Shown: piece after piece, positions 31,286 to 31,565 of the stretch
Position numbering within the stretch: the stretch's first letter is position 1
Layout: each line of letters opens with the position of its first letter
Source of the DNA: Enterobacter phage vB_ECC_MY742
Length of the DNA stretch: 64,000 bases
Sequence record: PV593737.1
Strand: one strand, 5' to 3'
Program-made: the position numbers and the translations under genes
Notes under the pieces: model-generated
Told to the model about the DNA's origin: nothing
The model's database searches: none
Seen by the model: only the letters and a program-made list of their open reading frames with translations

Positions 31286-31565
31286 AGGAACGTCCTACGC
31301 GTACACGTTGTCAGTTCCCGCAAGCCCTCTAGGGGTACGTTTAAACTCTTATCTGTTGCACACCGTTAGCTTAAAGGGTCCGGGTCCGATTTCTCGAGGA
31401 TAAGATATACACCGATGGATGTATAGGCCTTGAGGCGTACTCCCGATTAGCCATCGCCTCGGGGTAGCATGCACTTGCCGTTTATTTTCAAGTTCGCACT
31501 TTAGTAGCGTATCACTGGAGGTTTTGACTTATTTAACGTCGGGATGACCTACAACCATGACATAA
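31286..31565 (-). other. ORF-free, GC-enriched structured intergenic region (about 280 nt; candidate ncRNA or structured leader)
   Basis: No ORF of 60 aa or more on either strand. GC content visibly higher than the flanks. Multiple G/C-rich inverted repeats (GAGGCG...CGCCTC, CCCCTAG...CTAGGGG-like, GGACCCGGACCC). Confidence 0.4.

What the first reader, a model, noticed from the sequence alone, without database searches (positions are those of the whole stretch)
31286..31565. About 280-nt ORF-free, GC-enriched, highly structured region between the rIII-like gene and a small basic-protein gene
In an otherwise very tightly packed early region, where genes overlap by ATGA, this stretch has no ORF of 60 aa or more on either strand. 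It is visibly richer in G+C than its flanks. It is full of G/C-rich inverted repeats: GAGGCGtactcccgattagccatCGCCTC, GGGTCCGGGTCC, CCCTCTAGGGG and ACGTGTACGCGT. It lies downstream (minus sense) of the rIII-like ORF and ends at an AGGA SD for the 69-aa basic ORF. Candidate explanations are a novel phage ncRNA, a long structured 5' leader or autoregulatory RNA operator for the downstream basic (possibly RNA-binding) protein, or a decayed mobile element or intron remnant.
Basis: seen in the sequence. Interest (0 to 1): 0.6.

Follow-up and report, generated by a model that had tools for sequence, protein, structure and literature searches.

The report
Structured phage RNA beside ToxI mimic
The gene-free gap between rIII and gene 30.9 of this T4-like Enterobacter phage encodes an apparently undescribed, strongly conserved 143-nt folded RNA that lies directly next to a single-unit copy of the ToxI antitoxin RNA found on Enterobacter plasmids, which hints at an RNA-based counter-defence locus that the model phages T4, T2 and T6 do not carry in this form.

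Summary
31286-31565 is the longest stretch of the window without an ORF of 60 aa or more, and its GC is at the 98th percentile. The true gap is 310 nt, from the rIII stop at 31566 to the 30.9 start at 31255.

It is a mosaic of sense-strand RNA modules. The centre (31484-31342, minus strand) is a 143-nt domain with a closing helix P1, a linker-free four-way junction, a six-pair kissing loop and a three-way subdomain. Across 23 distinct homologues 96% of pair cells are paired, against at most 43% in slid controls. 27 of 49 pairs show compensatory changes. No reading frame is conserved.

The domain matches no Rfam 15 family. About 400 T-even phage genomes carry it, always between rIII and 30.9. 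T4 lacks it, and T2/T6 carry a different 55-nt module at the same site.

Directly upstream (31517-31483) is one unit resembling ToxI, the RNA antitoxin of the ToxIN abortive-infection system. It best matches the repeat upstream of toxN on Enterobacter plasmids.

The domain's function is inferred only. I favour an accessory protein- or ligand-binding RNA in a counter-defence locus. A cis-regulator of 30.9 is the main rival.

Predicted folding energy is unremarkable, so the structure rests on covariation alone.

The parts
31566..31811 (-). rIII gene (lysis-inhibition accessory protein). It is the upstream cistron of the transcript that carries the gap.
   Evidence: ORF. PHROG 1457 at E 1.9e-37. 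Annotated as rIII in the 98.8%-identical phage CIP9.
31520..31561 (-). Module H: a hairpin with a conserved 11-nt loop (UUGUAGGUCAU) and the tail GUUAAAUAAGUCAAAACC. It is present in almost every T-even rIII-30.9 gap examined, T4 included.
   Evidence: Alignment of 37 extracted windows, some of them overlapping duplicates from one locus. The outer stem covaries GAC/GTC, GTC/GAC, GTG/CAC and GGC/GCC. See also the gap alignment.
31483..31517 (-). Module Y: one ToxI-like (pseudo-ToxI) unit, CAGUGAUACGCUACUAAAGUGCGAACUUGAAAAUA. It is preceded by a degenerate repeat end (UCAAAACCUC, 31527-31518). Its last 2 nt overlap the 5' strand of P1.
   Evidence: - The only part of the gap that matches plasmids is query 51-91, at 86% and E 0.08. 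It hits 9 Enterobacter plasmids, 4 places in each.
- Those places form a tandem array of 3.9 x 37 nt directly upstream of an annotated 'Endoribonuclease ToxN'.
- Local alignment gives z = 10.3 against the Enterobacter ToxI unit and 3.8 against the Pectobacterium unit.
- Alignment A5.
31342..31484 (-). Core structured RNA domain, 143 nt. All coordinates are window positions read on the minus strand.
- P1: 31484-31480 with 31346-31342.
- P2: 31479-31477 with 31428-31426.
- P3: 31468-31459 with 31446-31435.
- P4: 31425-31419 with 31412-31406.
- P5: 31405-31399 with 31353-31347.
- P6: 31397-31394 with 31389-31386, with a GAAA loop at 31393-31390.
- P7: 31385-31381 with 31365-31360.
- P1, P2, P4 and P5 meet in a four-way junction with no linker nucleotides.
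   Evidence: - RNAalifold predicts 40 pairs, 18 of them with compensatory changes.
- In the 49-pair model on 23 distinct sequences, 96.4% of cells are paired against 30-43% with the partner slid.
- In the same model 27 pairs have changes on both sides, against 13.1 +/- 2.0 in shuffles (0 of 500 shuffles reach it).
- P1 is 4-11 bp in most lineages (2 bp before an A.G mismatch in three) and entirely different in sequence between lineages.
- A covariance-model search finds one copy in the window.
- No frame is open across homologues.
31451..31456 (-). 5' half of the kissing loop: CGAUGG in the terminal loop of P3.
   Evidence: It pairs with 31418-31413. All 6 pairs are formed in all 23 sequences, and 3 of them show changes on both sides. 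The versions seen are CGAUGG/CCAUCG, UGAUGG/CCAUCA, CUAUGG/CCAUAG and CAAUGA/UCAUUG (helix 4).
31413..31418 (-). 3' half of the kissing loop: CCAUCG in the loop of P4.
   Evidence: helix 4.
31325..31335 (-). S1: a small hairpin, CCC-CUAGA-GGG, that starts the constant part of the 30.9 leader.
   Evidence: RNAalifold on 19 leaders. By eye only, phage Cronus has GCC/GGC at the closing pair.
31286..31319 (-). S2: a hairpin, GGGAAC...GUUCC(U), with a variable insert. The insert here holds the small hairpin ACG-UGUACG-CGU at 31308-31297.
   Evidence: The stem covaries GGGAAC/GTTCC, GGGAGC/GCTCCC and GAGAACTGG/CCAGTTC.
31263..31278 (-). Hairpin UCUCC-AAAAU-GGAAGA, which sequesters the Shine-Dalgarno sequence of gene 30.9.
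   Evidence: Conserved in 19 leaders and predicted by RNAalifold. By eye, the equivalents are CCUC-UAUU-GAGG in Cronus and UUUUC...GAGAA in T4.
31076..31255 (-). Gene 30.9 homologue: a 59-aa basic protein of unknown function. The true start is the ATG at 31255-31253.
   Evidence: - ORF.
- The T4 30.9 annotation is 58 aa.
- Start codons compared across 13 loci.
- PHROG 1427, function unknown; no Pfam match.
31049..31071 (-). Terminator-like hairpin plus a T-run, closing the rIII-30.9 transcription unit.
   Evidence: Consensus scan: 9-bp stem followed by TTTTGTTTTC. No promoter-like or terminator-like site lies inside the gap.

Best explanation
Shown by the analysis:
- The gap is not empty spacer. 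It is an intercistronic RNA built from independently folding modules, read in the sense of the genes (minus strand).
- Its centre is a self-contained 143-nt RNA domain. It has a closing helix P1, a perfect four-way junction, a kissing loop between arms P3 and P4, and a three-way subdomain with a mostly GNRA-capped hairpin.
- The domain is under strong purifying selection. It occurs once per genome in about 400 T-even phages of Enterobacterales, always between rIII and 30.9.
- It is gained, lost or replaced as a unit.
- It abuts a single ToxI-like unit that best matches the ToxI repeat found on Enterobacter plasmids.

Inferred, not shown:
- The domain works as RNA within or after processing from the rIII-30.9 transcript. 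In T4 that transcript is made from early, middle and late promoters.
- It acts as an accessory binding module, that is, a decoy, sponge or antitoxin-like RNA for a host factor or small molecule.
- It therefore forms part of an RNA counter-defence locus together with the ToxI-like unit, rather than being a dedicated switch for gene 30.9.

I put the structural and evolutionary part at about 0.9. The functional part is about 0.35-0.4.
For: Structure:
- 49-pair model with 96.4% of cells paired, 27 pairs with changes on both sides, and no shuffle reaching that (0 of 500).
- The kissing loop is fully kept through four sequence versions.
- P1 has unrelated sequences in different lineages.
- Many G-U pairs lie on the sense strand. 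They would be A-C mismatches on the other strand.

Not coding: every frame is interrupted in some homologue.

Selection: the domain is 86-98% identical to six of the eight lineages compared (65-75% to the two most divergent), where rIII third-codon positions are 43-57% and 30.9 third positions 56-79% identical.

Not a known family:
- Nothing reaches Rfam's gathering score in the window.
- Nothing relevant appears at E up to 10.
- ARAGORN finds no tRNA or tmRNA.

Autonomy and accessory character:
- Clean filled, empty and alternative alleles occur at three different junctions: T4 against ACG-C40 against T2/T6, L048 against EnC07, and L051 against the window.
- The distance to the 30.9 start varies from 74 to 190 nt.
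- No promoter or terminator lies inside the gap.

Counter-defence context:
- The adjacent unit matches the ToxI array upstream of toxN on Enterobacter plasmids.
- Klebsiella T4-like phages carry the Pectobacterium/Klebsiella-plasmid variant at the same place.
- RNA mimicry of ToxI by a phage is an established escape route (PMC3475682).

Transcription: T4 rIII is transcribed from all three promoter classes (PMC9409239).
Against: - There is no experimental or transcript evidence at all.
- No bacterial counterpart of the domain was found. E. coli genomes gave no match, plasmids matched only the ToxI-like unit, and an exact 20-mer scan of 185,579 genomes gave 0 hits. If it is a mimic, its model is unknown.
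- Several domain-bearing phages (EnC07, Serratia 4S, Cronus, L016, L019) have no significant ToxI-like unit, so the two modules are not obligatorily linked.
- Strict fidelity to the 30.9 leader (64 of 64 copies) fits a cis role equally well.
- In phage PhiTE, 1.5 ToxI-like repeats did not protect until the array expanded. A single unit here may be inactive, which weakens the guilt-by-association argument.
- The plasmid match of the ToxI-like unit has a marginal E-value on its own (0.08).
Confidence: 0.4

Rival explanations
1. The domain is a cis-acting regulatory aptamer in the 30.9 leader. It binds a metabolite, or a protein such as gp30.9 itself, and through the downstream S1/S2 hairpins changes access to the sequestered Shine-Dalgarno sequence. 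This would be riboswitch-like or autoregulatory control of translation.
For: - The domain always lies in the 5' untranslated region of 30.9 and in the same orientation (64 of 64 copies).
- A junction plus loop-loop architecture with invariant unpaired nucleotides is typical of aptamers.
- The 30.9 ribosome-binding site lies in a conserved hairpin.
- gp30.9 is small, basic and unusually conserved even at synonymous sites.
Against: - No conserved expression platform exists. What follows P1 differs between lineages (S1, module H, or a UGUACG hairpin), and the spacing to the ATG ranges from 74 to 190 nt.
- No terminator follows the domain.
- T4, T2, T6 and many other phages keep 30.9 and its Shine-Dalgarno hairpin without the domain.
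- Presence of the domain does not track the two gp30.9 sequence types.
- An apparent mimicry between loop L3 and the 30.9 start region (shared AUGGCUAA) does not covary across lineages.
Confidence: 0.3
2. The domain is an RNA-processing or stability element. It could be a compact fold that blocks exonucleases or directs RNase E or RNase P cuts so that rIII and 30.9 mRNAs decay separately. Alternatively it could be a new self-cleaving ribozyme.
For: - It is a closed, compact fold flanked by A/U-rich single strands.
- It sits between two cistrons.
- Its action would not depend on position, which fits the variable context.
Against: - Simple stabilisers do not need about 60 invariant positions or a kissing loop.
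- No known ribozyme model matches even at E up to 10.
- T4, T2 and T6 express the same two genes without the domain.
Confidence: 0.15
3. The domain is a scaffold or insulator for the neighbouring ToxI-like unit. It would keep the unit correctly folded, or present a defined 3' end after ToxN cleavage at the GAAAAU site that overlaps P1.
For: - In three genera (Kanagawavirus, Jiaodavirus, Tegunavirus) the ToxI-like unit ends exactly where P1 starts.
- The plasmid match runs on into AAACGGCAA, as does the 3' flank of the last genuine ToxI repeat.
Against: The domain occurs without any detectable ToxI-like unit in EnC07, 4S, Cronus, L016 and L019. ToxI-like units occur without the domain in L051 and TG1.
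Confidence: 0.08
4. The region is a decaying remnant of a gene, intron or mobile element, or a DNA-level signal such as an origin or recombination site, with no RNA function.
For: - Presence/absence polymorphism resembles filled and empty sites of an insertion.
- A homing-endonuclease gene lies about 370 nt away in this genome.
Against: - Compensatory changes with G-U pairs on one strand only.
- Conservation far above neighbouring synonymous sites.
- No conserved ORF.
- No intron model match.
- The endonuclease gene is absent from CIP9, which has the same domain.
- No terminal inverted or direct repeats beyond P1.
Confidence: 0.04

Closest known systems
Pseudo-ToxI of Pectobacterium phage PhiTE, an RNA mimic of the ToxI antitoxin of the type III toxin-antitoxin / abortive-infection system ToxIN (PMC3475682)
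   Same: This comparison is for module Y at 31517-31483.
- Both are phage intergenic sequences closely resembling one ToxI repeat.
- Both are non-coding and transcribed with flanking genes.
- Both show the same length variation at the TTT/TT position inside the unit.
- The unit's variant matches the ToxI variant carried on plasmids of the host genus.
   Different: - Here there are only about 1.2-1.3 units, and I saw no expansion.
- The unit lies in T-even phages, whose only described anti-ToxIN factor is the protein TifA (PMC10853763).
- Activity against ToxN is untested.
- This comparison does not cover the 143-nt domain, which has no similarity to ToxI.
Riboswitch aptamers built on a multi-helix junction locked by a loop-loop contact, such as the purine, lysine and SAM-I classes. 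The features of those classes are recalled from my own knowledge.
   Same: - Closing helix P1 of variable sequence.
- Junction with invariant unpaired nucleotides.
- Distal loop-loop or pseudoknot contact proven by covariation.
- GNRA hairpin.
- Location in a 5' untranslated region.
- Size of about 140 nt.
   Different: - No Rfam aptamer model matches.
- There is no adjacent expression platform.
- The downstream gene has no known metabolic link.
- The element is optional among close relatives.
- The P5 sequence UCUUAUC/GAUAAGA and the segment ACCCGGAACC resemble S-box motifs only superficially.
T4 stable RNAs C and D (species 1 and 2), which are processed, structured phage RNAs of unknown function
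   Same: Both are T-even-encoded RNAs of about 120-140 nt with no known function, embedded in longer transcripts.
   Different: There is no homology: the covariance model scores at most 8.9 bits anywhere in the T4 tRNA region or the T4 rIII region. The locus differs. Whether the present RNA is processed is unknown.
Translational operators in T4 mRNA leaders, such as gene 32, regA and gene 43, and bacterial ribosomal-protein leaders. These are recalled from my own knowledge.
   Same: Both involve a structured leader in front of a small nucleic-acid-binding-like protein, with the ribosome-binding site held in a hairpin.
   Different: Those operators overlap or adjoin the ribosome-binding site. 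This domain is 74-190 nt away and dispensable in T4. Binding by gp30.9 is untested.

Membership tests
Any Rfam 15 family (riboswitches, ribozymes, group I/II introns, phage RNAs, sRNAs) | Covariance-model score at or above the family's gathering threshold | tested here: not met
   There were 0 matches in the whole window at gathering thresholds. In 31000-31950 at E up to 10, the only match is sR58 at 14.7 bits, inside rIII and outside the gap. Homologous loci also gave nothing relevant.
tRNA / tmRNA | Cloverleaf with tRNA-type D and T arms, as recognised by ARAGORN | tested here: not met
   0 genes in the window. The loop-loop contact joins arms 2 and 3, not a D/T-type pair.
Protein-coding gene, intact or recently disrupted | A reading frame kept open across homologues | tested here: not met
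   Five of the six frames have at least one stop in all 35 distinct sequences, and the sixth in 34 of 35. The window's 41-aa frame is broken in ACG-C40, 4S, Yen9-01, L015 and Cronus.
Pseudo-ToxI / ToxI antitoxin RNA (applies to module Y only) | Sequence similarity to a genuine ToxI repeat that lies upstream of toxN | tested here: met
   86% identity over 41 nt to the last repeat of a 3.9 x 37-nt array upstream of annotated ToxN on Enterobacter plasmids. z = 10.3 against shuffles. Variant-specific positions are shared.
Pseudo-ToxI / ToxI antitoxin RNA (applies to module Y only) | Tandem repetition: 1.5 units in wild-type PhiTE, more in escape mutants and in bacterial loci | tested here: not met
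   There is one unit plus a degenerate 10-nt repeat end upstream. No tandem array exists in the gap.
Pseudo-ToxI / ToxI antitoxin RNA (applies to module Y only) | ToxN cleavage motif (A-rich, AAAU) at both unit borders | tested here: inconclusive
   The 3' border GAAAAU is present. The 5' border reads CAAAAC instead of GAAAAUC. The motif itself is recalled from the ToxIN literature, not re-derived here.
Pseudo-ToxI / ToxI antitoxin RNA (applies to module Y only) | Neutralises ToxN or suppresses abortive infection | not testable with these tools
   This needs a toxicity-rescue assay or a plating-efficiency assay.
Riboswitch (applies to the 143-nt domain) | Conserved aptamer with covariation-supported helices and invariant junction nucleotides | tested here: met
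Riboswitch (applies to the 143-nt domain) | Expression platform (terminator or Shine-Dalgarno sequestering helix) directly coupled to P1 | tested here: not met
   There is no terminator in the gap. The sequence after P1 differs between lineages, and the spacing to the ATG is 74-190 nt.
Riboswitch (applies to the 143-nt domain) | Specific ligand binding | not testable with these tools
   This needs in-line probing or calorimetry.
T4 stable RNA C/D | Homology to rnaC or rnaD | tested here: not met
   A full covariance-model scan with filters off of the T4 tRNA/rnaC/rnaD region and the T4 rIII region gave a best score of 8.9 bits at E 0.57.
Insertion element / MITE / homing-endonuclease cassette | Terminal repeats, target duplication, multiple genomic copies or a linked endonuclease | tested here: not met
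   There is one copy per genome (403 places in 402 records). The domain always lies in the same locus. The nearby HNH gene is absent from CIP9, which has the domain.

The most novel reading that the evidence does not exclude
The 143-nt domain is an RNA counter-defence effector of a kind not yet described. It would be an abundant, nuclease-resistant phage RNA that neutralises a host immune component by binding it. The target could be the toxin of an uncharacterised RNA-antitoxin system, which would make it a second and structurally complex antitoxin mimic next to the ToxI-like unit. Alternatively it could act as an RNA 'sponge' for an immune signalling nucleotide. On this reading the rIII-30.9 gap of T-even phages is an exchangeable cassette site for anti-defence RNAs, holding the domain, the 55-nt T2/T6 module or the ToxI-like units.
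Probability: 0.25. Interest if true: 0.9.

Novelty: new variant of a known kind. Interest (0 to 1): 0.72.

Why it matters
T-even phages are the most intensively studied viruses of bacteria. Even so, this RNA appears undescribed, plausibly because T4, T2 and T6 lack it. It is absent from Rfam 15 and from the searchable literature.

It is carried by about 400 sequenced phages. Many of them are Klebsiella, Enterobacter, Shigella and E. coli phages isolated for therapy.

Its fold, a perfect four-way junction locked by a covarying six-pair kissing loop, is as well supported as many accepted RNA families. It is small enough for direct biochemical and structural work.

The neighbouring unit, which matches a host-genus ToxI variant, extends RNA mimicry of a type III antitoxin to T-even phages. 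Until now that mimicry has been shown for one Pectobacterium phage, and only the protein inhibitor TifA is known in T-evens.

If the gap proves to be a cassette site for anti-defence RNAs, it would open a new class of host-range determinants. Natural filled, empty and alternative alleles are already available for testing.

Tried and rejected
1. Known RNA families. Rfam at gathering thresholds and at E up to 10 gave nothing relevant, both on the window and on homologous loci.
2. tRNA or tmRNA: none found.
3. Homology to T4 rnaC/rnaD: none.
4. Small protein gene: no conserved frame.
5. Thermodynamic evidence of structure: z-scores are not significant on either strand. I dropped this as evidence.
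6. Promoter or terminator inside the gap: none by the consensus scan. By eye, the upstream A/T-rich runs do not fit the T4 late promoter TATAAATA.
7. The inner helix GGC/GCC that RNAalifold predicted in loop L3 was replaced by the L3-L4 kissing loop. The kissing loop explains the linked changes better.
8. Further pseudoknots, such as GCAU with GUGC. All positions are invariant or conflict with P7 in Cronus, and an all-against-all covariation scan was swamped by phylogenetic signal.
9. Mimicry between L3 (AUGGCUAA) and the 30.9 start region: it does not covary.
10. Bacterial counterpart of the domain: none in E. coli genomes, in plasmids, or by an exact 20-mer scan in 185,579 genomes. The one odd metagenome hit, L064, is a chance match inside a coding gene.
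11. Counterparts of the T2/T6 module and of module H: none in plasmids or E. coli genomes.
12. More distant family members in other T4-like lineages, fetched through rIII and gp30.9: none beyond Erwinia phage Cronus.
13. Function of gp30.9: no Pfam match, a PHROG of unknown function, and no relative in the Protein Data Bank.
14. Literature. There were no hits for the domain's sequence strings. The papers I opened do not mention this gap or ToxI-like units in T-even phages. Subscription-only papers are not covered, for example Driukas & Nivinskas 2003 on rIII/30.9 expression.
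Full report
**1.

The window comes from a T4-like phage. It is 98.8% identical over this locus to Enterobacter phage vB_EclM_CIP9, genus Kanagawavirus. All genes here run on the minus strand:
- gp31 at 32488-32859;
- an HNH/NUMOD1 endonuclease ORF at 31937-32491;
- rIII at 31566-31811;
- the homologue of T4 gene 30.9;
- a terminator-like hairpin at 31071-31049;
- a promoter-like site at 31029-31002.

The stretch 31286-31565 is the longest part of the 64-kb window without an ORF of 60 aa or more: 280 nt, against 133 nt for the next longest. 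Its GC content is 0.482 against 0.403 for the window, the 98.3rd percentile.

The 69-aa ORF is an over-call. T4 30.9 and all homologues start at MAKQ. The real gap therefore runs from 31565 to 31256, which is 310 nt.

Predicted folding energy is not unusual. The z-scores are -0.41 for the sense strand, -0.09 for the antisense strand and -0.53 for the whole gap. The word 'structured' has to be earned by comparative evidence.

**2. [quoted passage not shown]

A gap of 244-355 nt between rIII and 30.9 exists in every genus checked:
- T4: 244 nt;
- ACG-C40: 355 nt;
- JD18: 352 nt;
- fHe-Yen9-01: 312 nt;
- Serratia 4S: 291 nt;
- EnC07: 262 nt.

Aligning the gaps shows separable blocks. I label them as follows.
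- H: a hairpin with a conserved loop and a tail, present almost everywhere. Its stem covaries.
- Y: see section 5.
- A central 'core'.
- S1, S2 and a hairpin that sequesters the 30.9 ribosome-binding site. These three form the constant 3' part of the leader.

The core is present or absent as a clean unit at three different junctions:
- between Y and H: T4 is empty, ACG-C40 is filled;
- between S1 and H: L048 is empty, EnC07 is filled;
- between Y and S1: L051 is empty, this window is filled.

At the Y|H junction a third allele exists. It is an unrelated 55-nt module with its own apparently compensatory stems (by eye), carried by T2, T6 and several Mosigvirus-like contigs.

**3. The core is a structured RNA**

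I collected homologues in four ways:
- an exact-pattern scan of viral contigs, giving 19 loci;
- an exact-pattern scan of metagenome contigs, giving 15 loci, one of them a chance hit;
- loci fetched through gp30.9 and rIII;
- a covariance model built from the first alignment.

RNAalifold on 18 sequences gave 40 pairs, 18 of them with compensatory changes.

Inspection added three things.
- The closing helix P1 is longer than predicted. It is 4-11 bp in most lineages (2 bp before an A.G mismatch in three), with wholly different sequences: UAAAC/GUUUA here, UUAUAGC/GCUAUAA, CAUAC/GUAUG, ACAC/GUGU, UUGC/GCAA and UAUAAUC/GAUUGUA elsewhere.
- Two extra pairs extend P3.
- A six-pair kissing loop joins the P3 loop (CGAUGG, 31456-31451) to the P4 loop (CCAUCG, 31418-31413).

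The kissing loop is kept as UGAUGG/CCAUCA, CUAUGG/CCAUAG and CAAUGA/UCAUUG in other lineages.

I counted the final 49-pair model on 23 distinct sequences.
- 96.4% of cells are paired, against 30-43% when partners are slid by 1-3 columns.
- 27 pairs have changes on both sides, against 13.1 +/- 2.0 in shuffles (0 of 500 shuffles reach it).
- The kissing helix is 100% paired, with three doubly changed pairs and no half-changes.

The tool's own caveat applies: related sequences inflate shuffle statistics, so these are not P values. The slid controls and the independent sequence versions of P1, P3, P4, P6 and the kissing loop do not depend on that.

P1, P2, P4 and P5 abut without linker nucleotides, which makes a perfect four-way junction. 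P5 encloses P6, which has mostly GAAA or GUAA loops, and P7.

G-U pairs are frequent on the gene-sense strand and would be mismatches on the other strand. The functional molecule is therefore the sense RNA.

No reading frame is open across homologues.

**4. Conservation, distribution and novelty of the core**

Against six of the eight lineages compared the core is 86-98% identical (65% to fHe-Yen9-01 and 75% to L019). Over the same comparisons rIII is 64-73% identical overall and 43-57% at third positions, and 30.9 third positions are 56-79%.

BLAST with the window copy and with the two most divergent copies each finds about 400 GenBank phage records, essentially one place per record (403 places in 402 records). 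All the records listed in the sampled rows are T-even phages of Enterobacterales: Klebsiella, Escherichia, Shigella, Enterobacter, Yersinia, Salmonella, Citrobacter, Serratia, Raoultella, Erwinia and Edwardsiella.

In all 64 copies I hold with enough flank, the core lies between rIII and a 30.9 homologue, 74-190 nt before the start codon.

The following all lack it or fail to match it:
- T4, scanned with filters off in two 10-kb regions, the rIII region and the tRNA/rnaC/rnaD region;
- T2 and T6;
- E. coli genomes;
- plasmids;
- one genome for each of 185,579 bacterial and archaeal species, tested with an exact 20-mer;
- every Rfam 15 family, and ARAGORN.

I found no description in the searchable literature. 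That library omits most subscription journals.

**5. The neighbour is a ToxI mimic**

The 35 nt just upstream of P1 (31517-31483) reminded me of ToxI. ToxI is the repeated RNA antitoxin of the ToxIN abortive-infection system. I tested the recollection.
- The recalled 36-nt unit is 100% identical to the Pectobacterium atrosepticum plasmid NC_011767 (6 places). It is also identical to many small E. coli, Salmonella and Klebsiella plasmids. It agrees with a published primer as well.
- Searching plasmids with the whole window gap returns only this segment. The match is 86% with E 0.08, on nine Enterobacter cloacae/hormaechei plasmids, four places in each.
- Those places form a 3.9 x 37-nt tandem array directly upstream of an annotated 'Endoribonuclease ToxN'.
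- Local alignment gives z = 10.3 against the Enterobacter unit and 3.8 against the Pectobacterium unit. Klebsiella phage JD18 shows the reverse preference, and Yersinia phage fHe-Yen9-01 scores z = 14.2.
- The alignment shows the variant-specific positions are shared accordingly.
- ToxI used as a query hits 163 Klebsiella phage records (about 91% identity over one unit in the T4-like genomes listed), inside this same gap.

Phage PhiTE escapes ToxIN by expanding such a 'pseudo-ToxI' from 1.5 to 4.5-5.5 repeats (PMC3475682). In T-even phages only the protein inhibitor TifA is described (PMC10853763).

There are caveats.
- Only about 1.2-1.3 units are present here.
- The 5' cleavage motif is degenerate.
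- The variant tracks phage lineage as well as host.
- Several core-bearing phages have no detectable ToxI-like unit.

**6. How it most likely works**

These points are shown:
- an autonomous, selected RNA fold in the sense transcript;
- accessory and exchangeable behaviour;
- a fixed locus;
- no coupled expression platform;
- a neighbour that mimics a defence-system antitoxin.

From these I infer that the core is an RNA binding module, that is, a decoy, sponge or antitoxin-like RNA. It would act from the rIII-30.9 RNA, which in T4 is made from early, middle and late promoters (PMC9409239). I give this about 0.35-0.4.

The main rival, at about 0.3, is a cis-acting aptamer or operator that tunes translation of 30.9, whose ribosome-binding site is in a conserved hairpin.
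- For it: the strict placement in the 30.9 leader.
- Against it: the variable spacing and context, and the domain's absence from phages that keep 30.9.

A processing or stability element or a new ribozyme (about 0.15) and a scaffold for the ToxI-like unit (about 0.08) remain open. Decay products and DNA-level signals are effectively excluded.

**7. Verdict**

It contains a well-supported new RNA family in a classic phage group, flanked by what appears to be an unreported ToxI mimic in T-even phages. Function is unproven. The experiments listed under next steps are simple, and natural allelic controls exist.

Noticed in passing
window 31937-32491 (minus strand): An HNH/NUMOD1 homing-endonuclease ORF (PHROG 655, E 4.5e-39) sits between gp31 and rIII and overlaps the end of gp31 by 4 nt. 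The 98.8%-identical phage CIP9 has no gene there, so this is a recent free-standing endonuclease insertion.
   Followed up: partly
window 31812-31936: This is the third-longest ORF-free stretch of the window (125 nt), lying upstream of rIII. It contains a long inverted repeat, GGTAGAG...CTCTACC, at 31841-31881.
   Followed up: no
window 31076-31255 (gene 30.9) and homologues: Third-codon positions of gene 30.9 are 77-79% identical between genera in which rIII third positions are 43-53% identical. This suggests extra, possibly RNA-level, constraint on the gene, or recent exchange of the 30.9 block.
   Followed up: partly
L106:7495-7782 (T6), L107:8348-8635 (T2), and L031, L040, L045, L049, L093, L094, L097, L099: A 55-nt module (CTATCAYGCGTCAGAAAAGKGTTATCTGTSTAAGYCKTGGTGG) with stems that look compensatory by eye occupies exactly the site where other Tequatroviruses carry the 143-nt domain and T4 carries nothing. 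It has no Rfam, plasmid or E. coli counterpart.
   Followed up: partly
window 31520-31561; the same module in T4 (L001, about 6620-6665 on the minus strand): Module H, a hairpin with a conserved 11-nt loop plus the tail GUUAAAUA..CAAAAC, is present in nearly all T-even rIII-30.9 gaps, with a covarying outer stem. By eye it is weakly ToxI-like (about 50% identity), so it might be an old degenerate repeat. The 5' end of the T4-type gap (GGAGATTCACTGCCTTAGTGTGAGCTAAAATC) also looks weakly ToxI-like, at z about 2.
   Followed up: partly
window 31297-31308; also in JD18 (L005), L042, fHe-Yen9-01 (L006) and Cronus (L104): A small hairpin with an invariant centre UGUACG and, by eye, varying stems (CAUG/CAUG, UCUG/CAGA, UUUG/CAAA, ACG/CGU) recurs at different positions of the gap in different lineages.
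   Followed up: no
GenBank phage records hit: Units resembling 1-2 ToxI repeats also occur in unrelated phages: Escherichia phage Bas88 and XT32 (76 kb), Salmonella SeKF_80, Klebsiella pzk-kv7 (110 kb) and Vibrio JSF10. RNA mimicry of ToxI may therefore be much more widespread than the single published case.
   Followed up: no
L108:1388-2077 (Enterobacter cloacae plasmid OW849001): Enterobacter plasmids carry a toxIN locus whose ToxI repeat (37 nt, AGGTGATACGCTACCACTAAGTGCGAACTCGAAAATC) differs from the Pectobacterium and E. coli type. The sequence just after its last repeat (AAACGGAAAAGTGGC) resembles the first bases of the phage domain (AAACGGCAAGTGC).
   Followed up: partly
window 31566-31811 (rIII protein): There is a weak, sub-threshold Pfam match of RIII to Tad3, the type I Thoeris inhibitor (E 0.039, 14.2 bits against a cut-off of 27). 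It is probably chance, but I note it because of the counter-defence context.
   Followed up: no
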